This document shows positions 17,001-58,199 of a stretch of DNA of 64,000 nt, one piece after another. The notes beneath the pieces were generated by a model. It was not told the DNA's origin. It did no database searches and saw only the letters and a program-made list of their open reading frames with translations. This stretch comes from Raillietiella orientalis (Eukaryota): assembly GCA_036172245.1 (NCBI GenBank), contig JAYWIR010000016.1, forward strand, positions 124,001-188,000, given 5' to 3'. Position 1 is the stretch's first letter; every line of letters begins with the position of its first letter. The position numbers and the translations under genes were made by a program.

Positions 17001-20000
17001 GCTTCAAGGCCCCTGACGGTCCCGTTCCCAAACCGAGGAGTGCTACCGACGAAGAAGCGCGCAAGAAATACCTCGTCCCATCCGCGGCCGTGGACGATCA
17101 AACGGCCATGTCATTGCTGGACGCCACAGAGGTATGAGGCAGTCGGTCTGGGGGAGGAGGGGAGGGGGAGTTGCGCTGGCGTGCTTTCGTCTCCGTTGCA
17201 CGGGAACGGGAGCTATCCTTTTCCCGTGCCGCCACAACTCGGAAACGTGCCAAGAGTGCTCGTCGCTGTCGTCGTTCGAGGTTCGGCTCGAAGGCGCGCG
17301 TTCCCTTGGCCTGCTGGCAAGGACGACCGTGCTCGGCGAATCGCGTGTGTTTCCCCCCCCCCCCTCTCCTCGTGTTCTGTGAACGGATCGGTCACGCGCG
17401 CGCGACCTGTGTCCTGCTTTCGCGTGTCGAGGGTGCACACGAGCAGGTTCCGTGCAAGAGCACCGTTACGTCAACTCTTTGCCGGAACGGTCTTCTTGCA
17501 CGGGCGCGCTGTTGCGTGTGGGTGCGGACCGGCTGTAAATTCGCACAGCCCCCGCGAGCCGCCGCCTTTCCAGAAAACGAAGGACGCGCACAGCGATCCT
17601 TTTGCTGCCTGCACAAAAATAAAAAAGGTGAAAACGAAGAACTGAAGTTCCTGGAAACTCGTGCTTGCGCGTGCAATCGAGTCCAATTCTAATCTATTTA
17701 ACACCAATTCTCGTAGCAGCATACTACCGTTCAGAAAGAGGTCGTTCACGTGCTTACGTGTGCAGAGTGTTTGGTAGTGGGTGCACCGCGCTACTGGGAG
17801 GTTCTCTGAACACTCCCTTAATCCCCCCCCCCCCCCAAAAAAAAAAAGAAAAAAAAATTGGTCAGTAGATGTTTCATCCAAGAGCTTACGATGCCAAAGC
17901 GAGTTCTTTAACAGGACCGTTCATTCGGATGACGTGTGGCCCTGCAAGCGCGCGTCCATTCAGGCACCCCGCCCCCACCCCCCGGCTCCCAATGCACGCT
18001 TTCCTCGACGGTGAGAACGAATTCTCCGGCAGACCGTTGCTGACTCCTTCGATCGCACTTGCCTTCGTGGCGCCCGTGCTCTGTGTGGAAGTGTGCGTCG
18101 GGGGAGGTTACACCACCGCTCCTCCCTGCTCCGCTCGTGGTGGTGCACGGGGAGTGCGCACCGGGGAAAACCGCGCGACCGCGGTCTGGCAGCGTGACCT
18201 TTTTCCGGTTCCCGGAGTGGCGGCGTGCATCCCGAGAGTTTTTCCACGCAGAGTGCCCGTCAGCTCCCGTTTTCGCCGTCTCGAGCTGCTGGGATTTCGC
18301 GGCGGCGGGTCATTCTGCCGTCGTCGCTTCACCCCAGTTTCCGTGGGCAGCGAGATTTCTTGGTCTAACTACTGGGACTAACGGGTTGCACTGACGGCCG
18401 TCCGAAGATCAGAACCCCCCTTTTCCCCTGGACTGAACGTTCTCTTGGAGCGCTCGCGGCGGATTTTCGGGACTGGGGCAAGAGGCCATGCTAGTGGAGT
18501 GTTTTCAGCGGTGGAAGGGGGAAGGGGACCTCTACTTCCTCGGCATGCCCGCGGGCAGCATTGCAACCTCCCAGGACCCGCTTCGGATTATAAATGGAGG
18601 GAGAGGTGTGCAGCTTCAGGAGTGGGGAAGCTCCTGATACCGATGTGGTCCGCTTCGCCCGTGGGCACCTTACGTGTTCTTCAGCGTTGACTCTTGCTCC
18701 TCTTGATATTTAGTGTGCTGGAGAGCAGGGACCTTTTCGCTGTTTCTCAGAAACTTCTAGAATGGAGGGCGGAGCAATCGGCGTGCAGCTCCGTTTTCCT
18801 TTGTTCGCGATCGGGAAGGGAGGGGGGGGGGGGGTTGAACCGGGAATGCGGGTGAAGTCCCCAGGTGTGGCCATCGCGCTGGCCGCGACAGCGGGGGATA
18901 GGGGGCGAAGCACGAGGGAGACTAGGAAGTGGAAACCGCTGATCTTGCCTCTTATGCAGCTGGAGGGAGGAGGTCTCTGGTGCCACCGGGCGTGCTTCTG
19001 CGCCCCGACTACCAGTTGCCCTCGTCGCGGAAGCCTAGCTGTCGTTTAGGCCCCTCTTTTGGAGCGCCTCCTTGCGGGGTGCTTCACGCCGACGTGGGGT
19101 TCCGCCTTGCCACCCATGCCACCTGACTCCCGTCGCTGCTGCTGCTGCTGCTGCTCGTCGGGCACATGCCTGTGTATATCGCTGCCGCCATTTCAGCCTT
19201 GCGTTAGTTTTGGGGTAGCCCAAGTGGCGCTGGGAGTGGGAGAGCGTGAGGACGCAGGGAATGGACAGAAGAGGATGTCGAACTCTCCCCGAGTGCCCCT
19301 CGTCCGTCTCCGCTTCGTTGCCAAGAATTCAAATAGCCTCCCGCGGTTTCCCTACCTTGTTCCCTGCGGTTTGCCTCTTTTTGGCCGTTCACGCTGGCCT
19401 CGTGACCCGGCGTCCCCTGTCACCGCGTTTCGGAAGCGTCCCTTCGGGGTTCTCTTCACAGGAGTGAACGGGAGTGGTTCCCTTGCGGGTTCCCTCCGGA
19501 GTAGAAATCCCTACTAGCGGATCCTTTCCGCATTCCCTTCGGAGGAGTTGAAATGGAGAGGACCACCTCCCATTAGGGTGGTGTCCCTACAGAGAGAATG
19601 AGGAAGGAGATTTCCTTAGGGGTTCCCCTTCGGAGACAACCAGGGTGGGAGGTGATCTTCATTTCCTGGGATTCCTCCCCAGGCGTGAGAGAAACGGATT
19701 CGGAGCCCTTCCTGGATTCATAGGGCGGACCCCCATCCCGGGGTGCCCCCTATTCTGAAGAATTACGCTGAAGATTACACGTCCCCCTGTGGGGTTGTCG
19801 CAGGGGAGAGGCTGGAAACTAAACAGTGTGTTTAAAGAGCCACTTGCGCCGCGAGGCACGCGACCAGCTCTGAGGTACTTAGAGAACCAAGAAAAAGAAA
19901 ACTCTCAAAAAAAAAAGCTGGAAAGAAAACAGCGAAGACAGAAGAAAAAGAAGACCCCAAGGATTTCCATCGTCCCGGCGACTCCCGAGTATGCGCATAT

Positions 20001-20152
20001 GGGTCGCCGACGAGACATGTCTGGCCCTCCAGAAACCGGATCGTCCTCTTAAAGATGATCCTTGCGACTCCGATGGTTAACATGACGACTCCCGGGAACG
20101 GCTCCTGCCCTATTTCCGACGTCGAGTTGTCCTAACTGAAACCAAGGCAGCG

Positions 20153-20185
<33 letters not shown>

Positions 20186-23100
20186 AGCCCCGGTGAAAAG
20201 GTGGGCTGGGGGAGTAGGAGGAGGAGAGTTTCCGTTGGTCGGATTTTCGAGATCAAGTAGTTGGGAAGGGAGAGAGCGTGGTTTGTCCACGCAAGTGGTC
20301 AGCGAGGAAAGCTCTTTCCGGAAACCTCATGCTGCCACAGTAGCTCGTCTCTCGTTTATCTCAAACAGGTTGACTGCGCTTCCCCCCCCCCCCCCCCCGT
20401 CCTCCTCGTGCCTCCCTCTGTTCGTCCCAGTGACTCCCGGATCGAGTTTTCAACTCCCTTTTTGCTCGGAGCCGCGCTGCGCTCTTTGGGTGCGCAGCCC
20501 TCCCTTCTCGGCCAAGGTTTCCGCGAGTCGCCATCGTGGAACCGGTGGTTTCCGTGGGTCGGCGCTACACGCCTTCACTGCAATGGGAGGAAGAAAATGC
20601 GATCCACGAGTAGTCGGTCCGCGGATCTCTGTCGTCACGCCACCCTCCTCCACTCGCCCTCTGCGCCTGGTTTTTTTTCCAGGGGTCCAGGAAGACGGGC
20701 AGAGCAGGATGATTCTTCGTGACGGCAGCGTTTCGTGGAGCGCCCGTGGTTTGCGCGGTGCTCCCTCCTTTCCCGTCCTCCCTCCCGCTCCTACTCGAGA
20801 CCAGGATAGCTCGACTTTTTTTTCCTTTTGACTTCTTGCCGACCATCATGAAAAAATAAACAGGAGCAGGCTTTGTTAAGGGAGGGTTGGAGTAGGGGTG
20901 GGGGAATTCCGCTTGGAGCGGCTCAAGGCGGAAGAGGGACGAACCGCTCCCTGGTGGCGAGCAGATGTGCGCGCATAGGTGCTCGCGCTGTTTCCTGCAT
21001 GCGGTAGCCGTGTGCACGACGAGGGGAGGAAGCCGAGCGGGATGCGAGAGAGAGGAGGCCCCAAAGTCGGAAGAAGCGCAGCGTTCCCGTGTATGTGTGT
21101 TTTTCTTTTTGCGACTTTATAGACATCGTGGTAGAGCGGAGAGCGAGGCCAGAGGTCGTACGTCTGCCTCGTTTGGGGCCGACAGCTCAAGGGAAGGAGG
21201 CAGGGGAAGCGAGAGGAATGAGAACCCCCGTAGAGAAGATGTTTTTCTGCTGCTATGTTTCCCCCGCTCTCCCCAAAACCCCAGCCTCCTTCCCAGGAGC
21301 GTTCCTTGGCCGCGGATCTGCCTTTTTATCCTCCTCCTCCAGCCATGCGCTCCTTCCGGACTCCGTTCAAGAGGACGTGCGCGTCTCACCGCTCCTGTTG
21401 TTGCGTCTGGTGCTGCGAACTAGTACGCCGGAGTCACGCACTTCTCGTGGAAGACCTTTCTTTTAAAAGGAGGAGGAGGAGGAAAAGGAAACATTCCGTC
21501 TCGCGACTTCTTTTTTTTTTTTTGGCTCGTTGAGTACCTCAAGAGCCGTCGCGTACCTGGCGGCTCACGCAGCTCTTTGACACTGTTCCACGCTATCCGA
21601 GGGTGCGTGCAATTCTTCAAGATAGGGGAAGAGACCACTCTTTGAACCCAGGAAGAGTTCGGAGTCCGTTCCATTCACGAGGAATCATCGGAGGGGTCCA
21701 CTCCATTTTTTTCTTCTCCAGAGGGAACCACGAATTCTCTTAGGTTGATGCTGTAGCCGCACGCTCCACTCCGTAATCGTTGCGCGCCGCGCATGGCTTC
21801 ACCCCCACTCCCTGCGGACTCCCCACTCGCAGGGTAATAGGGAGTGCCGACGACACTCCTAGCGTGTGGTCCGTTCCCGTGATTTGCTCCTTTCGCGCGG
21901 TGTGTTCCTCTTGATAGCGGTGGCTCATGCTTCTTTCCCTCTACCATCACCTAACCCCTTTACTCCTGCCTCCCCTCCCCTCACCTACAGCTTTCTTCCC
22001 CATTTCATCGCCTATCCTTTTATCAATGGAGGTTCCAGATCTGTGATCGGTAATTCCTTAGGGGAGCGCTTGGTTCCGCATGCCTCTACGGTCGCTGCCG
22101 AAACGTGAGTCGTGGACTTCGCGATAGCGAAGTGTGACATGTTGCACGCGCGCGCCCGAGCGCGCGCGAGAGAGAAAGAGAGGGAAGGGGGAAACCAGAG
22201 CGAGCGCACGGAAGGTGGGCGTCTTCCCCCATCTGCTCGCTCTTCTGATGGTCTTTTTTCCTGTCCCAAGGAATCCGGGAAGAGCGCGCAGCCAGCCTTG
22301 CTCACAGCAGCGTCCATCTCCACCAAGTCTGCGGATCCCTTGAGCAGTCCGGGCTACCACTGTCCCTGGGACCTGGGCTCCCTGGCAAGGGACTACTATG
22401 CGAACTGGCTACTTCTGCGATCCGTGAAGGTCTGTGTACACTGGACGAGCCGATCTAGCAATTCTCCTTTCTCCTCCCCTCTTCCCTTCCTCTCTTCCCC
22501 TGAAAAGATCGTCGTGCTGGTGGCGTTGGCAGTGCTGCTGGCCGGCAGCGTGTGGGGCGCAACCGTCCTCAAGAACGGCCTCAACCTGACCGACGTGGTG
22601 CCCCGCAACACGAGAGAGTACCAGTTCCTGTCGGCGCAGTCCCGGTACTTCGGCTTCTATCACATGTACGCCGTCACCAAGGGGGATTTCGAGTACCCCA
22701 CGAACCAGAAGCTGCTTCACGAGTACCACGACTCCTTCACCCGCGTTCCCAAGATCATCAAGAACGACGACGGCGGACTGCCCCCCTTTTGGCTGAGCCT
22801 GTTCAGAGACTGGCTGATCGGCCTGCAGAAGGCTTTCGACCGCGACCGCACCCAGGGGTTGATCAACGTGGACGGCTGGCTGAAGAACGCTTCCGACGAG
22901 GGCGTGCTGGCTTACAAACTGCTCGTCCAGACGGGCCACGTTGACAATCCAGTGGACAAGTCCCTAGTGAATCACGTGCGATTGGTGGACGCGGAAGGTG
23001 TGATCAATCCGAAAGCGTTCTACAACTACCTTAGCGCCTGGACCACGAACGACGCGCTGGCCTACAGCTTTTCCCAGGCGGACTTCCATCCCGAACCCAA

Positions 23101-26100
23101 AAAGTGGTTCCACAACTCGGAGGATGTGGACCTGAAAATTCCCAAATCTCAGCCCCTTGTGTACGCTCAGCTCCCTTTCTTCCTCAACAACCTGGCCGAC
23201 ACTCCGGACATCACCAATATGATCGAGGCGGTAAGGTCCATATGCCTCCGCTTCGAGGACCGAGGTCTCCCCAATTTCCCCTCCGGCATTCCCTTCACCT
23301 ACTGGGAGCAGTATCTGGACCTGCGCTCCTTCCTCGTTCTCGGACTGAGTTGTGCCCTGGCGGCTGTGCTCCTGTGCGTGGGTGTGGTCCTCGTGAACAT
23401 TGGCGCGGCGATTCTCGTTGCTTCCGTGATCTTGGTGACCATCATCGAGCTCACGGGGATGCTAGGGTTCCTGGACATCCGCCTGAGCGCCATCCCCGCG
23501 GTCATCCTTATCACTTCTGTAGGCATCTGCACCCAGTTCGCTGTTCACATCGTCGTGGTGAGTGTGCGCGAGGGAAGGTCTCGTGCGAGAGCGGGAAGCA
23601 GCTCCTAACGTTCTCCTCCCCCCTTTCCAGGGTTTCCTGACGAGCATGGGAAGCAGGGATCACAGGACGCGCGTCGCTCTGGAGCACATGCTGCCGCCGA
23701 CGTTGCACGGAGCCATCCCTTTCTGCCTAAGCATTTCGGTGCTTCTTTTCTCAGATTATGACTTCATCATAAGGTGAGGCGCGCTCCGAGAAGGAAGAAG
23801 GGTCGGGGCGCGTAAGCGCGCTGGAGCCAAAGGGAAGTGGTGGATCCAAGCAGCGGAGAACTGCCTGCAGCAGAGCTGGCAGCCGCGCCTCTGTCTCCTT
23901 CCCTCCTCCCTCCCCCCCGTTCGCTCTTTTCTCACTTCCCTTTCGCGAGGAAGACAGGAAGCTTCTCCCACCATCACTCCGCCCCGTGCCACCCTGCTGC
24001 CTCCACGCGACCTTTTGCATCAAGGAGGGGGCGCCAAAGGCTGTTCGCCGTCTGGGTGCTCGCGCCGCCGCGGCAGCTGCTCGGGAAGGTGTCTTCTTGC
24101 CTGCTTCCCCTCGGCCTTTTCGCAGCTTTGCTCCGAACGTGCATCTCCCCTTTCCCTGTGCCGGTCCGGCCGCTGACGTGCTCTCCTTCGAGTGACACTT
24201 GGGGAAGCAAGTGCGCATGACCTTTTCCTGCGTGATGCTCGCCCGCTTTGCGCCTCGTCGCTTGCGTCCGCTGCTGCGGTCTTCTCGGAGAACACGTTCC
24301 GCCTTGGCGGTTCTCTTTGCACATCCCGGGCGCGTGCTTTCCGAGGCCACTTGGGGTCGCGAAGGAGGATCCTGGCTGGACTTCACCTCGACCGCCTCGA
24401 AGCGGGCCACTGTGCCGTTGGGCCGCCCCCTCCCCCAGGTTTGAAAAGCCGTGAGAAGGACAGGAAAGTGCTAATAAAATGTGTTTTTTTTTTAAATCTC
24501 TCTTTCTCTCTCCTCGTTACATTCACGTCGTCTCTGGGCGACCACCTGTGGAAAGCGGACCGCATCAGTGTTTCGCTTCCCCTCCCCTTTTTCCCCAAGC
24601 TGGAAATCTGTCCGAGTTGGAGAACGTGTAGCATTCCAGTTTCTTTCTTTTCTTTTGAGGGGGGGGGAGGGGGGGCTTTCTTTCTTCGAGGCCGCCGCCG
24701 GCGAGGGCTTTCCCACCACGCCGCCGCGTACGAAAGCAATTGCAGTTTCAGCGTACGCGCTCTCTTGCGATTAGGAAACGTCCGCGGACTCTTGGCTCCC
24801 GTGCGCCTGCGCCGATCGAACGCTGCACCCGTGTCCGTATCGGCGAGAGGAGCATCTTCTTTGCAGCCTCCAGACGTTCGCCGTGCAGCGGGTCGGCAGC
24901 GCGTCCGCTGTCTCCGGGGCCTCTGTAGAGACCGTGGTGCATGCAGGCATGGTCGGTCGAGGAGCCGCCTGTTGTCTTCCCCTCTTGAATTCTTTCGCAG
25001 AGCGGACACACCGAACGCCTCCCAGTTCTCCGTGTTCCCCTGAAACGCCTACGACTTGGGGCCCTGGGGATGTTTTATTTCCCTCGCCATTGTTGCCATT
25101 GCTGTCACTCTTTGCTGCCGAGGTCACGCCGCTTTTTCTTTCCCCTCTCTTTCGCTCTCGTTGCGTTCCGCCCGAGTTTCACTTTTCCGCAAGTGTACGT
25201 ACCTTGCTGTCCAGAGGGATTGCTGGAGGAAAAGGGGGGTTGGTTGTCTCGAGTCGGATGTTCTGGAACGAAGTCCCGTCTCTCTTGGTGACGTCGGTAA
25301 ACATCTCGGGAGAAAAGTGTCGCAAGAGCGAATCCAAGTTTCCGAGGTACTGCAGTTGGCATCTCTCTTTCACACTCGTGAGAGTTGAGCTGCGTTTTCC
25401 CAGTTCTTAATTCGATACCCTGCAGTGTTAAAAGGCAACCTTTCAAGGCTGGGTTTCTCGTCAAACCGAGCTGTTGAGATCATTCCAGCAGGGACAGCGT
25501 CTTTCTGTTCGCCTGCAAGATGATCATCCGGAGTCGAACTGCACAGTTGGACCGCGTTGTTGTTAATGCACGTAAAAGTACTGGAATAGTAGAGATGTAA
25601 AGGTTCTGATTCATTTATTCCCAGGGAATAGAAGGGATGAAGTGTTCCCAGGTTGGTTTTTAGATCTGTCTTCCATCCGGTTGACTTGAGATTCTTGGCG
25701 TCTCAAAAGAGCTCGCCTCCATGAAAATCCAACGCAGGAGCCATTATTTGTTTTACCATTTGATGTCATCCTCTTTTTTTTTTTTTTTTTTTTGCCTTGT
25801 TCAATTGACTCGAGTCTTTCAAGTGCTCAGAAATACGTCGAAGGATCGTTTGGCATTCCGTGAGGGGAAAAGAAAAAAAAAAAAAAAATCGCATATGCAC
25901 ACGAAAAGGTTACGACTTTGAGCTTCCTTGAAATTCTGCAGCGGACGGTGTTCTCTGTGCTTTCGCCATTTCTCATCACTCGATGTTCAATGGTCTTCGA
26001 GCATGTGGGTTTTCAGAAGGGCACTTTTCGTTCGGTCTGCCTCGAACCGGGCAAGGCTCCCTCGGGTAATGTGCGGGCGCAGTAAGCGTACTTAGGGGCA

Positions 26101-42300: not shown

Positions 42301-45287
42301 TCTAAAAACTAACACCGAAAAGTAAGCCAGAGAGACGTATACTTAAAATCCAGATGTCGAAACCTAACTTGTTCTAACTCAAAGCTAGATGGCAACCGGC
42401 GATTTCAACGGAAAAATAGGAGGCCCCGAAATTTCACAATTTGCATTTTGAGATATAGAAGCATATGCAGTGTACATAAAAGCTTAGCTGTACAGGAACC
42501 AGGAGACTCGAATCAAGACTCAACAGACTTTCGCGAAAACTCAAAATGAATCCATCTCCTTATTTTTCATAGAATTCTGAGCGGGATGAAGACAGCGACG
42601 GCACCAGCTGAGAGAGTGATTGAAAAAAGTTCTTCCATTTGCCAGGAACTTTAAGAGAAGACGAAAAGTCCAAGCATGCCGAAAGGAACAGAAAAAACAA
42701 AAAATCCATGTTCCTTCAAAATAGGAGACGGCCTTAGGATCGAGTTGAAGAAAAAGTTTTCAAAAACTTTTTCTTAGAATGGCGAAGAGTTATGGTTTGC
42801 TATATGCATTTGGGATTTCTTCTCCTTTTCATGACGATAGAATCACATTCTACGTATTCTTTTAATATTTGCAGCCCAAGTTAAAGAACATCGATTAGCT
42901 TATAACTTTAGAGAGTTAAAGTGCTTTTTAGAGCAAGTATGTGGCTTTTTATTGTTTTTTTTTTTGGATGAGTTTTTGAAAAACAATTTTTTTTCCCCGC
43001 ATTATGAGGACTTATGATTTCAGTTTGCCGAAGTGAATGCATAGTGTTTGAGAATATGAGAATCTTCTGCTATATTTTTCCACTCGCACGAGTTCTCGTG
43101 GACTAAAATGGATTTCCCTAGAAAGTTTTGTATGGTGTCAGTCACCACATCTGGAAACCGTCGTGATAAACACTCCTATAATCGTAGGGCGTGTCGGTTT
43201 TCACCTATTTTACGTTTCGTCTCAATGCATCGAGAGCACGTCGTTTCAGCCCAAGAATGTCCTAAGGAGCACATTATGCAATTGCACCTTAGCAGTAAAC
43301 AACAAAAGGATTCCGTGTTTATTTAATTTCTGTTTAATTTGGCATTTTATATCATCCGTTCCATCTGTGATTTTAGACTCATTCGATCGTAGCATCATCA
43401 TCTCCAAAAGTGCAACAGCTATCGTCGTATAAGGGCAACACGAGCTCTTTAAACGATGGAAGTGATGAACGTAGTCGTACTTGATGGGACGTGAAGGAAA
43501 ACATAAAAAACGATCGAAATTGTCTTTGCGTTTCTAATTTATTTCAGTTTGAGGGAATACATGAATAAAATACATAAATACTCGGCTGAAATCACACTTG
43601 AACGACGGAAAAAATTTCGTGTAGAAATATTCCTCATCTCTTGTGATACTCTTGGATAGAAATAATGAAAGTTACATTTGTTGTAGTAGATTCTCTTGTC
43701 GAGGACAAAAAAAATTTCCCTTAGCTGGTTAACTGAATTTCATACAAGGGAGTGAGACCCTATCGAAATTCGCTGCTGGAATATAAGTATTGAATAAAAA
43801 TTTTTATGGGGGAAGTGGTAACGGCGCAGTAGGTACATTGTCTTTTGAGGAATAAATGATGAAAGGAACGTAGGTATCATAAATTGTATTACAACTATAT
43901 TTGGATATACGAACTTATAAAGATCCTAAGTTCGTAGAAAACAGGAGGTAATTTCTATGCACTTTCATGTAAATTGCAAACTGTTCTAACTGGAAGTAAT
44001 TTCAATTGTGGATAATGAACGGCAATTTTTGCTGCACAAAAAAAAATTGCCCCTAAATTCCTTTTCCCTTGTTTTTTTTTATTAGCAGCGTTGCAGTTCT
44101 TGTATGCAGAAACGTTTCTAAAGTCAGGAGGGGGAGTAAATGAAGGAAGCTGTGATTGAGTCTGAAATTTTTTTCTTTTTTTTACTGTTGACCTTTGAGA
44201 AAAGTGCATTGCTGTAGAACATCCAGGGAGACTTGCTCAAAAGTTACTTTAGGTGGTCTTTCTGAGTGAAGGTTCTGAGTTGGTTTCAAGAACGGCGGCA
44301 TTAGGTTTCCTTTCAGTAGATGTACTTAAACGCAGAACTTAAATAGATACCTACTAATAAAGTTATGTTTAATACAGTGTGCGCCTTAATTTCGTTAAAA
44401 ACGTGAACCTTCTCATTGATGCGTTTAAATTGGGATGCATTAATAAGTGTGAGCGTTTTTTTTCGTTTCATTCATGAAGTTATCATGCAAAGGGTTCACC
44501 CTTTCCCAGTATTCCCGTGTGTTCCATAACTTTCGTCTCACCGTTTTTGATTAAGGGCAAGATGCAATTCTTTCTTGCATAAACAGATGTACTTGTTTCT
44601 GTTCGATTCTCTTATTGTGAATGCTGTTGTCAGAATGAGAAGGTGCAGTTCTCTAGAATAAGGTTTTCAGAGTAATCCCCATTTCTTTATGTTATAGAAT
44701 TTTAAATAGATTGTGGTATCTGTAGATTTGTGAACAGCCTTGGAATGAGTGAGTGCATTGCTTTCTTAGAAATATGTGCAGTAGCTATTGTGATGTATTT
44801 AATGTAACGTATTTTGTGATTAATAATAGTTTTTGTAGAAAATCATCATTGTTTTGATTTTATTTCATCCATTGTAAATCTATCATATAATCTAATTGAG
44901 ATTCATGTAATCATAAGTTTTCTTTACCAGTAGCTTGAAATTTTTCCCTGTGCCAGTCAGCATTTTATGTGCCAAAACAGATGTTATACATGTGACACGA
45001 AGTTATGTAAGCTGTATTTGCATTAATGCTAAGATCCTGTAACTTTCGAGAATGTATTATGGTTTGCAAATGCTCTAGGTTAGATAAATTAGGATTTTTC
45101 ATGAGATGTGCAAATCATTTTCTGAATCAAAACCAGATAACTATGTTATTTTTTGTGTAAAATTTATAAGTGAAAGTTTCAAAAACTAATCAGTTCATCA
45201 GGATTTAAAAGTGAGTAAATAGGGCTTCCTTATATAGTTAGTAAGTATCCAGACTGATATCAAAAACTTAATTCTTTCTGATTTTAG

Positions 45288-48074
45288 ATGGATGACTCCA
45301 GCATATATCCAGAAACTCCATTGGTTGTTCCAGCAGACATAACTCCTGAGGGAAGCCCCAAGTTCCTGCAAGAAGCGAGTTCCTTTAGTGTTGTGTTTTC
45401 CAAAAGTAGAGCAAGCACTTGTGAATCTCCTGAACCAAACTGTCCAATATGTTTAGGAAAATCAGAAAACAAGTCTTTTACTGACTCTTGTTTCCATCAG
45501 TTCTGTTTCACATGTTTGTTGGAATGGTCAAAGGTAATAACTGTTTTCAAGCTTATGTAGTTGAAGTCATATCAAAATTGGAACCTTTCCAACCTTGTTA
45601 AAAGTAATGTAACATAGGAGTGATATGTGAAGATCCCTGTTTTAATTGCAGCTGTATACACAAGATAACACATAACCTTTTTTGTTATTTTATTGGAAGA
45701 TCCACTTGCTATTTGTTTCAAGTCTAAAGGTCTTGTGAAAATGTGCAAAAAAAGCGTTTCATGTTGCATGTAAGTTTTTGTATAAAATGAGAAAAATTTG
45801 TACCATTTCATTCTGCAACGCTTACACAGTATGCAGATTAAAAAAGAAAAAAAAATCATTTGACATTTTTAAAAATTAGTTTGTAATTTCAAGTTTTTTA
45901 TCTCCAGTCATCATTGATCATGGCTATTGAGATTCAAACTTTCAAAAACGCGATTCCTAATTTCCTTTGAATGCATTCATTTTCTTACATATCGGTTGTG
46001 TTAAATGTTATTTCCTACATATGTTTGGGTTGTTGTTTTCTTCTCATTTAGACTTGTGTAAACTATAACGTTTTTGCCAGTGTGTTAAGTTCCTGAAACT
46101 GTTATAATTTGGAATGGATTTTAAATTTAAAGGTACAGCTGAATTAACTGGTATTTCCTTATAAAAACATTTTGTAAGCAAGCAGCTGGGAAACAGTGTA
46201 CTCCATAAAAAGTTCTTTATGGCCCTTTTTCTTATAAAATGTAGGTAAATTCATTTCTAGCATTATGATATACTGATTTTTGGAGTTCTTGTGACATGCA
46301 TGAGAATTAATTGGTTGCTCACTGTAGCACATTGTGTTTTACCGCATCTTTGGTTGACAAAAATTGTACATTTGATTCATGAAACGTTTCTTTAAGAGTA
46401 TGCTCTGTCACTATCCTTTAGACTTTCATATTTCAGAATTTGTTTTATGCTATGTTTGTTGTCATGGCTTTTCAATGTGTATATGTCCATTAGGTACAGG
46501 CAGTTTGTCCTCTGTGTAAGCAGCCATTCCGTTCTATCATTCACAATGTTCGTTCCAACAATCAGTATGACCAGTATGAGGTTCCAGCTCCTCAGTCAAG
46601 AAACTCTTCAGATTGGACGGAGTTGCAGATCATTCAGATGGGCAGGCGTTTCCGTTATAGGTTGGTTTTTGGTTTGACTGGATCCTGATCCCCACTGAAG
46701 TGTCTTCGATTGCTTAAAAACGAATTTCATTTTCCAGGACCACTATGACACCTGATGCTATGCGCCTAATGTCACAGAGAAATGCCATGTATGATTATTT
46801 GCCTACAGAAGTGCGTCCCAGACGCTCTACCAGAAACATGTGGTCTTCTTTTCAACAGACCTCTTCTAGTGATTTTAGAAGAGCCATTTATTATCACGAC
46901 ATGTGGGTGGAGCCTGTAAGTGACTTAACAGGAAGATATAGGGAGTGTTCACCAGAGTTCTATAGGTATACTCATTATTGTAAATAATGATGCTTTACCT
47001 AAGCTTGTGCTTCAACTGTTTTCCAGAAACAATCCAGCTTCTACACATAGACTGATCCCATGGCTAAATAGAGAATTGAATGCGATCTTAGAAAATCCTA
47101 CAAGTATCATGTATGTGATGGAGTTCATCCTATATCTAATTACCGTATTTGACATTTGTGCACCACAGTTTCGTGATCGCATCATAGGTTTTGTCCGTGA
47201 TAACACAGATCATTTTATTCACGAATTTTATTCCTTTGCTCGCTCCCCTTTTGATATGGTGGGCTATGATCAGCATATACACTATCCATCTCGTAGACCA
47301 ACGGTCTCTGTTCCATCTTTACAATCTGTTGTATCTGATGATGACAGCGATGTCATTGTTCTCTCTCCTGAAATCAATCGACACTCCACATTCTGCAACA
47401 ATCTCCATGAAACCCATAATCCTGAGCCACCATCTAGCAGAAGTGCTCTTTTAAACTGTGTTGCAAATCGTTCTCAGCCTAGCACATCTGGACAGAGTGA
47501 TTTGCCTGATAATGTAGGCAGTTCAGGTGATGAAGTGGAAATCATTGAAGTGATGAAGCCACGCCATGAGAGGACACCAGTGATTATCACTTTAAGTGAA
47601 ACAGAATCAGAGGAGCATATCAGGCCAAGAAGAGCAGCAACAAAAAGGAACTATATTTTCTCTGATTCTGATTCTTCATGTGATAGCACACCTGTTCTAT
47701 GTAAAAAGCCCAAAGTGCGCACAACAGCCCATCATCGACTAGCACAGTTACAAAGCAGTGAAAGTGAAATAGAATCTCCAGAGACACCAAGTGCCTATAA
47801 GCCACGTTTAGATAGATCCAAGTTCAGAGAGAACCATAAACAGTGTACATCCAAAATGCAGCATAGAAACCCTCCCCGAAGTGTCATTGTGGTAAAAGAA
47901 GACAGCAGTAGCAGTCACACAAGTAGTTCCAGTCGACATCACCATAAATTAAAGAAAACAAAGAAACATAAACACAGGAAACATAGGCACGAATCAAGGC
48001 AGCATAGGGATTCTGACAGTAGCACTCACAGCAAGTCACTCAAGCTCAAGATTCGCATTAAGCAACCTCTATAA
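45288..48074 (+). CDS. Topors: E3 ubiquitin/SUMO ligase Topors (RING-HC), 4 coding exons
   Basis: Exons 45288-45533, 46494-46660, 46738-46965, 47027-48074. RING CPICL...DSCFHQFCFTCLLEWSK|VQAVCPLCKQPF, then RRFRYRTT, SPEFYRNNPASTHRLIPWLNREL, TDHFIHEFYSFARSPFDMVGYD, SIM-like DVIVLS/VEIIEV/VIITLS and a basic K/H-rich tail. The ATG directly follows an acceptor (ttttag), implying an upstream exon. Confidence 0.93.
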
Positions 48075-48138: not shown

Positions 48139-52237
<4,099 letters not shown>

Positions 52238-54176
52238 TGTAAAAGCCTTTAAATTCTACCTTATGCAATCCCTACTCTGTACACACGCACCCATGATTTA
52301 CGCCCTCGTAACGTGATTATAAGTATTACCAAGTTTACAGCGATGTTGTTTCCACGATTTAGACTACAAAGTTACTTCTTGAATCACTCAATTAACTTTC
52401 TCAAAAAACGACTTTATATGTAAAACCTTAATTTAGAAAATACAGCAATTGATATGTAATCAGTATTTAAAAGTATGCAGATCAACAGTTTAATAATAAA
52501 AAGGATTTTGTACAACATTCAATCAACATTGAAAGATCTTCCTTTTTATAGGAAACAAATTGTTTCTGTACTTCTCATACATAATAAACACAAAACACGA
52601 TCTCAGATCGTGTTTGTAATGGTTTTTACGACTTGTATTAATGATGATTACTTTGAATTTTGTACATCAATGCATTATCATACATTCATTTGCAATGCTG
52701 TTTGGAATTAGGCACAGTGCTAAATATTCTTGAATCTGAAACACGATCTCATATAAATAATTATTAAAAATTTTCTATGCTTGAAATAGTATAATGTCGA
52801 TACTCCCGAAAACTTAAAAACAATGTATACGATTGCTCGTCTCCTTAGATTTATATTTTCCAAGTTATTATTTTTACACTGAGTTAGACATATCCCTCTT
52901 GATCTAAAACTAAGTCTTATGTCTTTTAAGCTATGTATAAATTTTAGAAACGCCACATCTTCATAAGTTATTAAAAACTGAAAGTTATGTGATGTTCCTC
53001 CTACAAAAGCTATGCAAGTTATTTTTTTCTTTATGTCAATGCACCAAACAGTCTGTTTTTACAAAGGTTTATAGAATAGAGCTGTTTCTTGCGTACTTCT
53101 AGTTTCAATCTCCAGTTTGCCTCTACTGTGTCCTGAAAATAAGAATCACTTTATAACGAATGTTCTTGAAACTATTTTGCCGCATTTGCAATAATGATGG
53201 ATTTCCTCAAGAAGCATTTCCGACTACAGATTATGGAAAAGTCTTTCATATTCTGGATCTCCGGCGAGTTCCTCCAACGTTTACACATTGGAGCACAAAT
53301 AATATCCTATAAACATCAGTGCTCATCAGTCCATGGTAAAAAGAGTACGAGCAACAGAGGCAAACAAGATAAACCTCATGTACAAATGCTTTCGTCTCGA
53401 TGCTGTGGTCCAGATTTGCAGTCTGGAGTTCTCTCTCACAATTCTAACACAAAGCAAGGTAACACCAACGCTTTGACACGGAAGCATTTTGCATGTCCAA
53501 ATTTCGGATAGAACCTTCAACCTGTACAACGACCTACATTAATCCGTAACCTTATTGCCACGAATTATGCCGCCACTGTTGATTTGCACCTTCCCTGTTG
53601 CATAATGGGAAAAATAAGTGCCAGTTGTGAAGTGACCTGATAGAGAATGGGAATGAACGAAACGACGTAAATACATGCCTCATCCACTGTTATAATTTTG
53701 TTATGCTTGCAAAGATGGAGTAGAGGCTTAATTTAGATTTCCAGTGCAATTACCAAAACTGCAGTAGGTTCTTAGGTTCATCACAAGAGAACATGCTACC
53801 ATCCCTTGTTGTCTTTACATTTCATATGTATTGGTATTAAACACAATACATATGAATTGCAGAGAAGACAATGTAAAGATCTTTCAGTTTGTGATCCTTG
53901 TTTTCCTTCATTCCAAATCCATTTAATGCACTTTCACACAAACATTCACTATTTTGCTGAATGGAACAAATTTTTGTGGTGAAATGTTTCATCAAATGAG
54001 GGCTGCAAACAACAACAAAAAATCGATGTGATCAAAACACTGTTGTCTGTAAACATGTTATTTAAAAAACACATACCAATTGACTTTCCCACAACTTCGG
54101 ATCTGTCATGCAGTCTGATTATTACATTTTTATGAACACTTAATTTACCTTACGTTTTTATTTTTAGAAATTAACA

Positions 54177-54704
54177 TCAATACAAAATTGATTTCTTTTT
54201 CACAAATACAACTGTGCATCTGTTAAATAGGCCATATTTTGCTACACACTGATTATCTTTTTTCAATGCAGTCTTTTCAAACATGAGCACATATGTCTTC
54301 CACACGTACTTCCAGCTTATCTTTTTCTTGATTTTCAACTCATCCTTTAGAAAAGGTGCTTAATATTCTTGGAAGGAAAGCTGACTCACCAGCCTTTGCA
54401 TAGTTGCTCTTTGGATTGCCTTCTTCAATTCCAAAACCGTAGCTTGCTGTCCAATGACCACTGGCAAAACAATTCCATCATTCCTGCATACATTGATTGT
54501 TATAGCTTGTCCACTTTCTAGGGAAATCAATGTTTTGAGTTCATCACTACTTGGGTTTTTCTCGATGCCAGTCAGCAAAGGATCTTTACTGATAAGATAA
54601 TTGACAGCATCTCTGAATAAACCGACAAATTGAATATGTGACAGGTCAGAGGATAACACTTTTAGGCAATCACTCAGCTGCTCCCTGTCAGGCAGCACTT
54701 CCAT
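54177..54704 (-). CDS. SNRNP25: U11/U12 snRNP 25 kDa protein (ubiquitin-like), 2 exons
   Basis: Exons 54704-54390 and 54344-54177. DPLL...LESGQAITINVCRNDG.VLPVV..QQATVLELKKAIQR...ISWKYVWKTY...YGLFNR..VVFVKK matches the SNRNP25 pattern. Confidence 0.9.
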
Positions 54705-54753
54705 CTTACTATGAGAAAAAGTGATTAGTCTCGTTACTGAAATTAATTTCAAA

Positions 54754-56015
54754 TTAATGTATCTTAGACCCAGTAGCCAATTGAATGCTGGATGGTCTAC
54801 AGATCACCAGCAATTCATAGAAAGCTAAAGCCATCAATAAAACTCTATTCATAAGTTCTTTTTTTCCTGGTGATTCTGAATAGTAATGTTGTTTCAGTTC
54901 ACTCATAATAGTAATTTTTTCAAAGTTTAAAAAAGGACTTCCTTCCAACAAAGCATCTACAACATCATATCCACACTTTCTGTTATGATCTATGGATAAA
55001 TTGAATAGCTTCAATATATATTTTGGGTTCACCATATAAACATCTTTACAATATTTTTCACTTAGCAAAGTTAACAAGCTTGCTTCAATTTGTGACAGAC
55101 ACAATGCAAGTGTAGGATTTCTTGAATAAATATCAACATATGTTCTCTCTTCAAAAAGATACAAATCTGGCTGCTTAAAATCTACCTCTATGAATAAGTC
55201 ATTGATCTACAAAAGAATTATCTTGAACAAAATTTAGCCAAAATTTACTTACTTTCTGAATTAATTGCCAGCTTAAAATATTTTTTTTCATTAATGCTTC
55301 ATATGAGAGGCACTTCCAGAGCCTTACTTCACAATTGGCTTTCAAAATGATAACAGCAATATGTCCAGGAGTATAATACATTGCACCAACAGATTTCACT
55401 GCCTAAACAGTAAAGATGTACTTGAAAAAACAAAAAACACACACATATGCATTGTATTTGTGAAAGTTTTGAAAAATAAAAACTGCAGGTAAGCAAACAA
55501 TTATAAGTTTGTTTTAGATACTTACTTTTGCATCCAGCTGAAGCTTCGGTGAAAGGAATTTTCCAATTGCTGGTAGTTTTCCGGATGGCTGAGGAACTCT
55601 TTGATCTTTAATAATCGTCTTGCAAAATTTTTCCAAACACTATCACAAAGAGAACAGAATCATTACTTATTAGGCAGTATGCTTGCAGGAGATGAAAAAC
55701 TCATGAAAACAAAAGCCCATTGGGTGCTTATTTGAGAAAACTAAATACCTTCAATCCTAACCCATCCACTTCAAGCAAGTTTTCTAAACTTGTAAACATC
55801 CCATAATTTTGCCTACACTTTATTACCCCAGCACTCATCATTTTAGGCAAGTGGCGCTCCAGAAAGTCACTAAGATTCCACTTGTTCACCGCTTCAAGAA
55901 CGATTTCTTGTTCTTCTTTTGTGAAATCATGACGAAATTCTAATAATTTAGCAGGCATTTTTGAGGTCGACACGGCTCTTTTTATAGTCCTCAGGATATT
56001 GAAACTGCTGCACAT
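54754..56015 (-). CDS. TEFM: Mitochondrial transcription elongation factor TEFM-like (HhH plus RNase H-like/resolvase fold), 4 exons
   Basis: Exons 56015-55749, 55639-55526, 55402-55253, 55206-54754. Basic N-terminus, FTKEEQEIVLEAVN, RQNYGMFTSLENLLEVDGLG (HhH), PDLYLFEE, QIEASLLTLL and C-terminal ELMNRVLLMALAFYELL. Confidence 0.8.
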
Positions 56016-58199
56016 TTTTCACATTCCAAAATTCAGTCTGTTTTCAGTTAACTTGGCTGTTTAGATTATTTTAGATTAGCTGGTCTCGTAGTGCTAGGAA
56101 TTTTTCCAAACCGGGAGTGCACTCACGGAAGCAGAGCATGATAGCAGGTGTATCGAACTGAGAACTTTTCATAATTAGACCGTCCTTCCACCAGGCCATG
56201 GATTCACATTCCTGAGGCCCCTTTACTCCACTACCAGGAAAACCACCCCAGCTGCCCGAAGCAGGATGGACAACATTACAGGGTTGTCGTAATTTTTGCT
56301 CACAGTTATTTAAATTTGTTAATTTAGGATTATCCATCCTAATTTTCAGAAATGATTTGAAGTATATGTTTTAATCAGCGATGGCTTTAAAATTCAGAGG
56401 CGGAATATATGCAGGAATCGAAATACGGATCGTAAGCAAATAGTGAATACTAATTATCATCGAATGCATGTTCGTCCGGTAGTTTTCCCTCGCTTTTAGT
56501 TTGCTGATTCACGAAGTGTGGCATTTATAAGCATGCAAAAAATTGAATTGGTTTCTCATTTTCATTGCTATGAAGACGAAATTCTCATGAACAATGCTGC
56601 ATATGCTGATGAATCAATCAATCAGTTGATCGAATAATTGTAAAAGGAAACAGTCTATCAAATGTCTCAAGGAACGTCTCTTGACTTTTCTCTTATTTCG
56701 ATGCCTTATTGAACTTTCCATGATCTGAGAGATGAAATGTAAGAGCAATTGTTACAAAATAAAATTCCTCCATATGAATAAGGCAGGCACTTCATGTAGA
56801 AAATTTCTTATTCTAAGAATTATTTGATAAAATTATGTATGAAAAAATAAAGATGAAACAGCTTCAAATGGAATGAATGCAATATGAATTTATTTCAAAT
56901 AATAGGAGTAGGAGAACAATCACTTACCCCAAATTATTCCCAATTCAAAAAAGAAGCAATGTTTTTATTTCCAACCATTTCTACGCTGTTAGTTTTGAAT
57001 GAATTTCAATGAGAGTACTTATTACCTGAAAAAGATTCCGAACATACTGTTATAGATGTTAATAGTATCATGTAATTGCGAGAATTCTAAGTGGAATTCC
57101 TTAATTTCTCCCCCTTCACGACAACTCTTTGCTAGTATCCTTGGTTGATCACCAGGATCTCCCATCATCCGTAGTCGCTTTCTTTACCTAGTCGACCAGG
57201 ACTTCATAAAATTTGGTGCATAGTTGAAAGTCATGAGTACAGATGATGTAAGATGAGGAACAGCATTTCTTTCATTTCAGACTTTGACTCCCCATGGACC
57301 TCCCATCTATCGGCGGGCTGTTCCTCGGATACATAGGAGATAATAACGAAAGGGCATATGAATTTGTAGTCTGCAATGATAGTCCCAGATGTTACCAAAA
57401 TGATTGGACATCTGACGCCGTCCAATGCAGCACATGAACTTTCCCTGATCAGGGCGTCTATCAATTAGAGATGGCTATGGCATAGCATATGTTGAATGAT
57501 GCGGATGTCTTTCTTCCTATGGTTATCGCCGCTTCTCCATGTCCCCTCTGGTATGAACGCATCCTAGAGGGGACATTTTTTCCTTGAGAACAGAAGTTTC
57601 GCGTGTGGTCAGTATTCCATACAAAATTCTTGATGGTCTGTCTGTCTAAGAAGGTGTTCTCCTAGGTCCGTGTGACATGCCGGGAGAGCTCCCAAACAAG
57701 TACAGGAATGGGATATTTTCCTCGGAAGATTCACTGTGGAAGTAACGTCCTTTTGCTCGTTCACCATATATATATATATATGGTTGCAGAAAAATTGGTG
57801 GCACTGTTTCCTTACCTATCGGATCTTGTTGAACACTATCCAGTCCCTTTCGAGTGGCTTCCAAGCCACTGGAGATGCAGCAAACGTTGGGAATTTTGGA
57901 GTCTATTCTTTGGATACCGAGCGTCCTCTTTCCGTTTGGTCACTCCCCCCTTCCCCTCCAGGAAGGAAGACCGCATGCATGCGCGGGTGCCGAGGAAATC
58001 AGAAGGGCGGTAAACTCCCTCTAGCCGATACTGGGGGTCAGCTGGAGACCTGTCCGGAACCCGTCGGTCCGGAACGGGACACCCTGTTGGACACGCCTGT
58101 CCTGGAAGGGGTGGTGGTGGTGGAAGGAAGAGCAAGTGAGGAGGGCAACCAGGAACTCCAGGTACATCCTTTCCTTTCCTCCTCGAGAGACAACATCGG

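What the first reader, a model, noticed from the sequence alone, without database searches (positions are those of the whole stretch)
54690..54780. TEFM and SNRNP25 are 49 nt apart and can be spliced into one in-frame ORF: bicistronic or fusion locus
Seen: the TEFM stop ends at 54754 and the SNRNP25 ATG is at 54704 on the same strand, with no AATAAA in the spacer and no room for a separate promoter. The spacer is a clear 3' splice site (branch-like gactaat, tttttctcatag|54708). A GT at 54769 within the last TEFM codons (ACT GG|gtctaag) gives a 61-nt intron that removes the stop and reads ...LATG-K-MEVLPD in frame. Inference: one transcription unit yields a mitochondrial transcription factor and a minor-spliceosome subunit as a dicistronic mRNA, a fusion protein, alternative splicing from a shared 5' exon, or SL trans-splicing. 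The donor is weak.
Basis: partly seen in the sequence, partly recalled or inferred. Interest (0 to 1): 0.7.

Follow-up and report, generated by a model that had tools for sequence, protein, structure and literature searches.

The report
Tight TEFM-SNRNP25 pair, candidate operon
Two unrelated housekeeping genes of an invertebrate animal lie head to tail only 49 bases apart with a splice-acceptor signal just before the second gene, which fits one shared transcript cut up by leader splicing, but no RNA data could be found and the proposed fusion protein is probably a chance reading.

Summary
On the minus strand a four-exon TEFM-like gene ends at 54754. A two-exon SNRNP25 gene starts at 54704. The 49-nt spacer has none of 14 poly(A) hexamers tested, and a strong acceptor (branch-like CTAAT, pyrimidine tract, AG at 54710-54709) lies 4 nt before the ATG.

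The fusion reading is weak:
- The 61-nt intron does give an open 484-codon frame, but 7 of 22 GTs in the last TEFM exon are in frame, which is chance level.
- Its donor has C at +3, seen in 0 of 9 introns I inferred in the window.
- 0 of 131 SNRNP25 relatives carry a TEFM-like part.
- SNRNP25 has a normal-length N-terminus from this ATG.

My best reading (about 0.45) is two separate proteins from an operon-like unit, with SNRNP25 mRNA capped by spliced-leader trans-splicing at 54709, as in Ciona or Oikopleura operons.

The main rival is SNRNP25's own promoter. An Inr-like TCAGT sits in the spacer, so "no room for a promoter" does not hold.

No RNA run was listed, no genome is held, and no synteny data were obtained, so the mechanism is untested.

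The scan has already noted similar pairs elsewhere in this genome, one reportedly with RNA support. This is one more candidate.

The parts
55749..56015 (-). TEFM-like exon 1 (ATG 56015-56013; 89 codons; basic N-terminus, helix-hairpin-helix region)
   Evidence: frame, donor AAG|GTATTT. HHH_3 E 9.3e-05, 22.9 bits, below the cut-off of 27; top PDB hit human TEFM 5ol9, E 0.077; first 25 residues have 5 basic and 0 acidic.
55526..55639 (-). TEFM-like exon 2 (38 codons, phase 0 at both ends)
   Evidence: Open frame flanked by AG and GTAAGT. No family hit of its own.
55253..55402 (-). TEFM-like exon 3 (50 codons, phase 0)
   Evidence: No Pfam or PDB hit of its own.
54754..55206 (-). TEFM-like exon 4 with stop TAA 54756-54754 (150 codons; RuvC/RNase H-like pseudonuclease part)
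   Evidence: the four best PDB hits are human TEFM, E 0.005-0.013, residues 13-135 aligned to 226-356 of 360; nearest Atlas clusters carry Ydc2-catalyt or Pox_A22 (RuvC-like).
54705..54753 (-). 49-nt spacer between the TEFM stop and the SNRNP25 ATG; none of 14 tested poly(A) hexamers
54709..54730 (-). 3' splice-site-like signal: gactaat (54730-54724), pyrimidine tract (54723-54711), AG (54710-54709); first exonic base would be 54708
   Evidence: It has 10 of 12 pyrimidines plus CTRAY and is one of 8 such sites in 32 kb. It scores as high as or higher than the four real acceptors of the two genes.
54736..54740 (-). TCAGT, initiator-like pentamer inside the spacer (basis of the rival own-promoter reading)
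   Evidence: 22 TCAGT on the minus strand of 16 kb, about 0.06 expected per spacer. The Inr consensus is recalled, not tested. I saw no TATA- or DPE-like match by eye.
54709..54769 (-).
   Evidence: the in-frame fusion is real as arithmetic; 7 of 22 GTs are in frame. The donor has C at +3, against 0 of 9 inferred donors in the window.
54390..54704 (-). SNRNP25 exon 1 (ATG 54704-54702; 105 codons)
   Evidence: PF18036, 33 bits against a cut-off of 22.8, profile positions 1-36; human SNRNP25 8r7n_B, E 1.9e-14; 131 relatives. N-terminal length is typical.
54177..54344 (-). SNRNP25 exon 2 with stop TGA 54179-54177 (55 codons), after a 45-nt intron (54389-54345)
   Evidence: PF18036, 56.1 bits, profile positions 42-88, continuing exon 1..
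54157..54162 (-). AATAAA, the only canonical poly(A) signal downstream of both genes, starting 15 nt after the SNRNP25 stop

Best explanation
These are two separate genes: a mitochondrial transcription elongation factor (TEFM-like) and the 25K subunit of the minor spliceosome (SNRNP25). They are packed into one operon-like unit. I infer three steps. Transcription from a promoter upstream of TEFM runs through the 49-nt spacer. The SNRNP25 message is then freed and capped by trans-splicing of a spliced leader onto the acceptor at 54710-54709, so the mature mRNA starts 4 nt before its ATG. The TEFM message ends at or just before that acceptor without a canonical AAUAAA, as in Ciona and Oikopleura operons. 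Shown here: the gene models, the spacing, the acceptor-like signal and the lack of a poly(A) hexamer. Inferred, not shown: any use of the acceptor, the leader, and the shared transcript.
For: Both genes are real and complete and lie 49 nt apart on one strand. The acceptor-like site has a branch motif and 10 of 12 pyrimidines, and no plausible cis donor is paired with it. Such sites occur 8 times in 32 kb. None of 14 poly(A) hexamers lies between 54800 and 54591, while AATAAA follows SNRNP25. In Ciona, 16 of 18 operon upstream cistrons lack AATAAA, and Oikopleura operons have 23-30-nt spacers and also lack it (PMC1488885, passages read). Joining any of the three real TEFM donors (all phase 0) to 54708 gives an immediate TAA, so the acceptor is not a normal TEFM exon. 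SNRNP25 needs no upstream coding exon: its N-terminal length matches relatives. SL trans-splicing is known in copepods and amphipods (PMC4664967 and PMC5111886, passages read). As leads only, not tested here: earlier scan notes list several similar pairs in this genome, and one (e1-7631493) reports RNA with a leader spliced on.
Against: There is no RNA evidence of any kind for this locus. No SL RNA gene was found in the window, and no genome is held to search. The acceptor could still be chance: about 0.01 to 0.12 per spacer, depending on stringency, and chosen after the fact. Five of the 8 equally strict sites have no known function. An Inr-like TCAGT in the spacer offers a conventional alternative. 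TEFM and DIMT1 show no comparable acceptor just before their ATGs, so leader splicing, if it exists, is not evident at every gene. No synteny data were obtained. The taxon is not established here: the best SNRNP25 relatives are a coral and Daphnia.
Confidence: 0.45

Rival explanations
1. Two conventional, independently transcribed genes in a compact stretch. SNRNP25 has its own core promoter overlapping the TEFM 3' end, with a TSS near the TCAGT at 54740-54736 (34-nt 5' UTR). TEFM transcripts read on and end at a non-canonical site or at the shared AATAAA at 54162. The acceptor-like tract is then coincidental.
For: TCAGT lies 36 nt upstream of the ATG. A second one (TCAGTT, 56161-56156) lies 144 nt upstream of the TEFM ATG. 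The spacer and TEFM tail are AT-rich. That overlapping tandem genes are common in compact arthropod genomes is recalled, not tested.
Against: The only support is a 5-mer, about 0.06 expected per spacer. I saw no TATA- or DPE-like match by eye. This reading does not explain the strong acceptor with a branch motif 4 nt before the ATG, nor the lack of any poly(A) hexamer for TEFM.
Confidence: 0.25
2. Cis-splicing from a shared or upstream non-coding 5' exon onto the 54709 acceptor. One promoter would then yield either TEFM mRNA or, by skipping the TEFM coding exons, SNRNP25 mRNA.
For: A good acceptor has no nearby donor. A donor-like T|GTGAAA lies 5 nt upstream of the TEFM ATG (read by eye).
Against: All three coding TEFM donors joined to 54708 give a long upstream ORF ending in TAA 1 nt before the ATG, which would hinder SNRNP25 translation. 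The 5'-UTR donor is weak and was chosen after the fact. No RNA data exist.
Confidence: 0.1
3. A stable dicistronic mRNA ending at the AATAAA at 54162, with SNRNP25 translated by internal initiation or reinitiation.
For: There is no poly(A) hexamer before 54590 and a single AATAAA after SNRNP25. That dicistronic mRNAs are annotated in Drosophila is recalled.
Against: Reinitiation after a 327-codon ORF is inefficient (established knowledge). Nothing points to an IRES. This reading leaves the acceptor unexplained.
Confidence: 0.05
4. A TEFM-SNRNP25 fusion protein made by removing the 61-nt intron 54769-54709.
For: The splice would be in frame and gives an open 484-codon ORF. The acceptor is good.
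Against: In-frame GTs are at chance level, 7 of 22. The donor TGG|GTCTAA has a pyrimidine at +3 and no G at +5, against 0 of 9 inferred donors with a pyrimidine at +3. None of 131 SNRNP25 relatives has a TEFM-like part. By inference, a mitochondrial presequence would misroute a nuclear snRNP protein.
Confidence: 0.03

Closest known systems
Ciona intestinalis SL-resolved operons (Satou et al. 2006, PMC1488885; passages read)
   Same: Co-oriented, functionally unrelated genes less than 100 nt apart. The downstream cistron is preceded by an acceptor. The upstream cistron mostly lacks AATAAA (16 of 18).
   Different: In Ciona the poly(A) site and the acceptor were mapped by cDNA and abut exactly. 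Here nothing is mapped, and the stop-to-acceptor distance is 45 nt, which would have to be the whole TEFM 3' UTR.
Oikopleura dioica operons (as described in PMC1488885)
   Same: Very short spacers (23-30 nt intercistronic), no AATAAA in upstream cistrons, and short introns (45-120 nt here).
   Different: It is a different phylum, and the leader and the polycistronic RNA are shown there but not here. My recollection that Oikopleura lacks a minor spliceosome was not checked.
Caenorhabditis elegans SL2-type and SL1-type operons (as described in PMC1488885)
   Same: A downstream gene freed by leader trans-splicing. The rare SL1-type operons have little or no spacer.
   Different: Typical SL2 operons have spacers of about 100 nt and an AAUAAA in the upstream gene. 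Here there are 49 nt and no AATAAA.
Spliced-leader trans-splicing of crustaceans: calanoid copepods (PMC4664967) and the amphipod Parhyale (PMC5111886); passages read
   Same: These are arthropods that add a leader at an acceptor in the 5' UTR. Earlier scan notes call this genome crustacean-like.
   Different: [quoted passage not shown] Neither published leader motif was found in the window, and I did not establish the taxon.
Conjoined or read-through fusion genes and dicistronic genes of insects (recalled; no paper read)
   Same: Two unrelated ORFs in one transcription unit.
   Different: Those rest on documented transcripts. Here the only candidate fusion donor is poor and no fused homologue exists among 131 relatives.

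Membership tests
SNRNP25 (U11/U12 snRNP 25K) | C-terminal ubiquitin-like domain of the SNRNP25 type (Pfam PF18036) | tested here: met
   exon 1 scores 33 bits and exon 2 scores 56.1 bits, against a cut-off of 22.8. Profile positions 1-36 and 42-88 are colinear across the 45-nt intron.
SNRNP25 (U11/U12 snRNP 25K) | Sequence similarity to the solved human protein and a conserved N-terminal segment | tested here: met
   8r7n_B, E 1.9e-14. D41, L44, E55 and G65 are invariant in 25 sequences; the DPLL motif offset is 40, against a median of 43 in relatives.
TEFM (mitochondrial transcription elongation factor) | N-terminal helix-hairpin-helix domain | tested here: inconclusive
   HHH_3 scores 22.9 bits, below the cut-off of 27; the top PDB hit is the human TEFM N-terminal domain, but at E 0.077.
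TEFM (mitochondrial transcription elongation factor) | C-terminal RuvC/RNase H-like pseudonuclease domain | tested here: met
   the four best PDB hits are all human TEFM (E 0.005-0.013), aligned to residues 226-356 of 360; nearest Atlas clusters carry Ydc2-catalyt or Pox_A22. The support is weak in score but colinear with exon 1. No structure was predicted.
TEFM (mitochondrial transcription elongation factor) | Mitochondrial presequence | tested here: inconclusive
   the first 25 residues have 5 basic and 0 acidic residues. No targeting predictor was available.
SL-resolved operon | Co-oriented genes separated by less than about 100-200 nt | tested here: met
   49 nt from stop to ATG.
SL-resolved operon | Unpaired 3' splice acceptor just upstream of the downstream cistron | tested here: met
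   (sequence only; its use is not shown).
SL-resolved operon | Downstream mRNA carries a spliced leader | not testable with these tools
   no RNA run was listed, so read laying could not be used.
SL-resolved operon | Polycistronic precursor spanning the spacer | not testable with these tools
SL-resolved operon | SL RNA genes in the genome | not testable with these tools
   no genome is held. Within the window there was no Rfam match and no match to published copepod or amphipod leader motifs.
Cis-spliced fusion (conjoined) gene | Consensus-like donor paired with the acceptor | tested here: not met
   the donor is TGG|GTCTAA, and 0 of 9 inferred donors in the window have a pyrimidine at +3.
Cis-spliced fusion (conjoined) gene | Fused homologues in other organisms | tested here: not met
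   0 of 131 SNRNP25 representatives match any TEFM exon at E up to 10.

The most novel reading that the evidence does not exclude
This pair is one cistron junction of a genome-wide set of SL-resolved operons in a crustacean-like arthropod. These would be of the Ciona/Oikopleura type, with almost no intercistronic DNA and no AAUAAA. A 2021 paper states that operons have not been reported in copepods or amphipods (PMC7986045), and my two literature searches listed no paper whose title or abstract start describes arthropod SL operons.
Probability: 0.4. Interest if true: 0.65.

Novelty: new member of a known kind. Interest (0 to 1): 0.4.

Why it matters
If leader splicing at 54709 were shown, this pair would add to evidence that an arthropod-like animal uses operons. 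That would be another independent origin of operons in animals, and a case where 3'-end formation of one gene and 5'-end formation of the next are coupled within 45 nt. On its own, without RNA data, the locus is only a well-formed candidate. It couples a mitochondrial transcription factor with a minor-spliceosome subunit, which have no evident functional link, as is usual for such operons. The fusion-protein idea, which would have been the most surprising, is not supported.

Tried and rejected
- RNA evidence: the look-up of sequencing runs (kind rna, 54100-56100) listed none, so read laying was not usable.
- Whole genome: none is held.
- Word-indexed protein search with SNRNP25 exon 1: no hit.
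- Metagenome scan with the single protein: 467 pattern matches, none confirmed.
A 6-sequence alignment then gave 2 loci.
- L001 is a coral-like SNRNP25 whose matched part is one continuous ORF, and its contig starts only 128 nt before the match. My first impression that it shares the window's intron was wrong.
- L002 shows no TEFM-like match within 4 kb upstream by tblastn at E up to 10. TEFM diverges fast, so this is weak evidence.
- Look-alike stretches in other scanned genomes: none.
- TEFM exon 3 alone: no PDB hit. The ORF 56074-56370 upstream of TEFM and 70 other ORFs: no Pfam family.
- Rfam on the window: 0 matches. Published copepod and Parhyale leader motifs: 0 matches.
- A scan for 'strong acceptor + ATG within 12 nt + ORF of at least 60 codons' found 22 sites against 3.84 in shuffles. 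It is not specific to gene starts: the site at 16241 is an internal Patched exon, so I draw nothing from it.
- Cluster look-up of the best SNRNP25 relatives named only a coral and Daphnia, which does not settle the taxon.
- No structure prediction or complex prediction was run.

Full report
**What is there**

The window has a sharp change in composition. It is about 0.55-0.66 GC up to about 42 kb and from about 58 kb, and about 0.33-0.40 GC between. The finding lies in the AT-rich block.

On the minus strand I read two gene models:

- **TEFM-like gene.** Four exons: 56015-55749, 55639-55526, 55402-55253 and 55206-54757, with stop TAA at 54756-54754. It encodes 327 codons and all introns are phase 0.
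- **SNRNP25.** Two exons: 54704-54390 and 54344-54180, with stop TGA at 54179-54177. It encodes 160 codons and has one 45-nt intron.

A script confirmed that both joined frames are open with a single terminal stop.

**Identities**

SNRNP25 is secure. Both exons hit Pfam PF18036 above the cut-off, with colinear profile positions 1-36 and 42-88. Exon 1 matches the solved human SNRNP25 at E 1.9e-14. An exhaustive HMMER search found 131 relatives at E up to 0.001.

TEFM is weaker but coherent:

- Exon 4's four best PDB hits are all human TEFM (E 0.005-0.013), aligned to residues 226-356 of 360.
- Exon 1's best PDB hit is the human TEFM N-terminal domain (E 0.077), with a sub-threshold HHH_3 match.
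- The language-model look-up puts exon 4 next to clusters with Ydc2-catalyt or Pox_A22 (RuvC-like) members. By my recollection that fold fits the TEFM pseudonuclease domain.
- Exons 2 and 3 have no hits of their own.
- The first 25 residues have 5 basic and 0 acidic residues, which is compatible with a mitochondrial presequence.

**The observation**

- The spacer is 49 nt (54753-54705).
- gactaat is at 54730-54724, followed by a pyrimidine tract and AG at 54710-54709.
- A GT is at 54769-54768.
- Removing the 61 nt 54769-54709 gives an open 484-codon frame.

None of 14 poly(A) hexamers tested lies between 54800 and 54591. The first AATAAA is at 54162-54157, starting 15 nt after the SNRNP25 stop.

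**Is the acceptor more than chance?**

I used a simple rule: YAG, at least 9 of 12 pyrimidines, and no AG just upstream. The 16-kb AT-rich block has 81 such sites on both strands, about 0.12 expected per spacer. Only 8 also have a CTRAY motif 8-40 nt upstream, about 0.012 per spacer.

The spacer site is among those 8. With 10 of 12 pyrimidines it scores at least as well as the four real acceptors of these two genes, two of which fail the rule.

Two cautions apply. The rule was chosen after seeing the site, and five of the 8 sites have no known function.

**The fusion reading**

TEFM exon 4 has 22 GT dinucleotides, and 7 are in frame with the 54708 acceptor, which is the expected one-third. An in-frame GT therefore says nothing.

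The donor TGG|GTCTAA has C at +3 and lacks G at +5. I inferred nine donors in this window: 3 in TEFM, 1 in SNRNP25 and 5 in DIMT1, read, with Pfam support for three DIMT1 exons. None of the nine has a pyrimidine at +3.

None of the 131 SNRNP25 representatives matches any TEFM exon at E up to 10. The long ones I inspected carry unrelated N-terminal extensions.

The conserved SNRNP25 core starts at residue 22-23, and the DPLL motif lies at offset 40 against a median of 43 in relatives. The ATG at 54704 therefore gives a normal protein. By inference, a fusion would also send a nuclear snRNP protein into mitochondria. I put the fusion at about 0.03.

**What the acceptor could be for**

Joining any of the three real, phase-0 TEFM donors to 54708 gives an immediate TAA, 1 nt before the SNRNP25 ATG. 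The acceptor is therefore not a further TEFM coding exon. A shared coding 5' exon would also leave a long upstream ORF in front of SNRNP25.

That leaves three options: a leader or non-coding exon joined at 54708, no use at all, or an unusual arrangement.

The combination seen here is a co-oriented pair less than 100 nt apart, an acceptor just before the downstream ATG, and no AATAAA for the upstream gene. This is what is described for Ciona operons, where 16 of 18 lack AATAAA and poly(A) site and acceptor abut. It is also described for Oikopleura operons, which have 23-30-nt spacers and no AATAAA (PMC1488885, passages read).

Spliced-leader trans-splicing is documented in calanoid copepods (PMC4664967, passages and primer table read). 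Parhyale leaders are listed in PMC5111886 (passage read). A 2021 methods paper states that operons have not been reported in copepods or amphipods (PMC7986045, passage read). My searches listed no paper whose title or abstract start describes arthropod SL operons. No paper that links TEFM and SNRNP25 as a locus turned up either: the two papers listed hold each name once and, by title and abstract start, are on unrelated subjects.

**The conventional rival**

The statement that there is no room for a promoter does not hold. A promoter can overlap the TEFM 3' end, and the spacer contains TCAGT at 54740-54736. That matches the arthropod initiator core as I recall it. It occurs 22 times on the minus strand of the 16-kb block, about 0.06 per spacer. 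By eye I found no TATA- or DPE-like element in register.

A second TCAGTT lies 144 nt upstream of the TEFM ATG. TEFM and DIMT1 lack a comparable acceptor just before their ATGs.

**Context**

- The next recognised gene downstream on the same strand is DIMT1. Pfam RrnaAD hits three exons, and the best PDB hit is human DIMT1 1zq9 at E 1.5e-54. Its ATG is at 52237-52235, 1.9 kb from the SNRNP25 stop, so the 49-nt spacing is exceptional locally.
- Nothing recognisable lies in the 2 kb upstream of TEFM.
- A RING-finger exon on the plus strand begins with an ATG that directly abuts another of the 8 strict acceptors, at 45287. I did not establish whether that is a gene start.

**What the scan noted before**

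Earlier notes on other pieces of this genome describe it as crustacean-like. They list several operon-like pairs: UTP23-NAXD at 42 nt, PGAP1-STRAP at 67 nt, REXO4-CNBP at 77 nt, VHL-RUVBL1 at 84 nt, and two three-gene clusters. For REXO4-CNBP the notes report RNA showing a leader spliced on just before the ATG.

I could not test these notes. They raise my prior that leader splicing exists in this organism, but they are not evidence for this locus. My own look at the taxon was inconclusive: the best SNRNP25 relatives are a coral (47% identity) and a Daphnia cluster (45%).

**What could not be done**

- No RNA run was listed.
- No genome is held.
- No SL RNA gene or published leader motif is in the window.
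- Synteny could not be examined. The two metagenome loci found are a coral-like contig that starts too close to the gene, and a distant locus without a detectable TEFM within 4 kb upstream.

**Verdict**

The probabilities I assign are:

| Reading | Probability |
|---|---|
| Operon-like pair resolved by leader trans-splicing at 54709 | 0.45 |
| Own promoter in the spacer or TEFM tail | 0.25 |
| Cis-splicing from an upstream non-coding exon | 0.10 |
| Stable dicistronic mRNA | 0.05 |
| Fusion protein | 0.03 |
| Other | remainder |

This is one more candidate of a kind the scan has already flagged in this genome. It becomes interesting only together with RNA proof.

Noticed in passing
window 48160-52237, minus strand: A DIMT1 (18S rRNA dimethyladenosine transferase) gene of about six exons. 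Its ATG is at 52237-52235, it has a 2.8-kb intron, and AATAAA lies near 48165. Human DIMT1 1zq9 matches at E 1.5e-54.
   Followed up: partly
window 45288-45534 and 46929-48071, plus strand: A RING-finger exon whose ATG (45288) directly abuts a strong acceptor with a branch motif (AG 45286-45287). Downstream lies a 381-codon Ser/Lys/Arg-rich ORF with no Pfam family. The two may be one E3-ligase gene converging on the DIMT1 3' end (the ORF ends 48074, the DIMT1 AATAAA is near 48165).
   Followed up: partly
window 56615-56725, minus strand: A 35-codon ORF (ATG 56722) preceded by a strong acceptor-like site (AG 56726-56725; 10 of 12 pyrimidines) 3 nt before its ATG, about 600 nt upstream of TEFM. 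It has the same layout as at SNRNP25. It may be chance or a small upstream cistron.
   Followed up: no
window 56156-56161, minus strand: TCAGTT (initiator-like) lies 144 nt upstream of the TEFM ATG, inside a locally GC-richer stretch (ORF 56074-56370, no Pfam family). It is a candidate TSS for TEFM or the whole unit.
   Followed up: no
window 54705-54710, minus strand: The acceptor AG overlaps a donor-like GTAAGA (A|GTAAGA), so the junction reads as a combined acceptor/donor.
   Followed up: no
window 16242-16568, plus strand: This ORF aligns to residues about 440-492 of solved Patched-1 (E 1e-06). The Patched gene noted earlier at 16513-23545 therefore has at least part of this exon, and presumably its first about 440 residues, upstream of the noted range.
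   Followed up: no
window about 42000 and about 58000: GC content switches sharply: 0.55-0.66 outside and 0.33-0.40 inside a 16-kb block that holds the RING gene, DIMT1, SNRNP25 and TEFM. Earlier notes describe GC-rich LINE islands in this genome.
   Followed up: no
L001 108-437: A metagenome contig encodes the C-terminal part of an SNRNP25 that closely resembles the coral (Pocillopora) protein P0001. The matched part is one continuous ORF, so this contig has no intron where the window gene has its 45-nt intron.
   Followed up: partly
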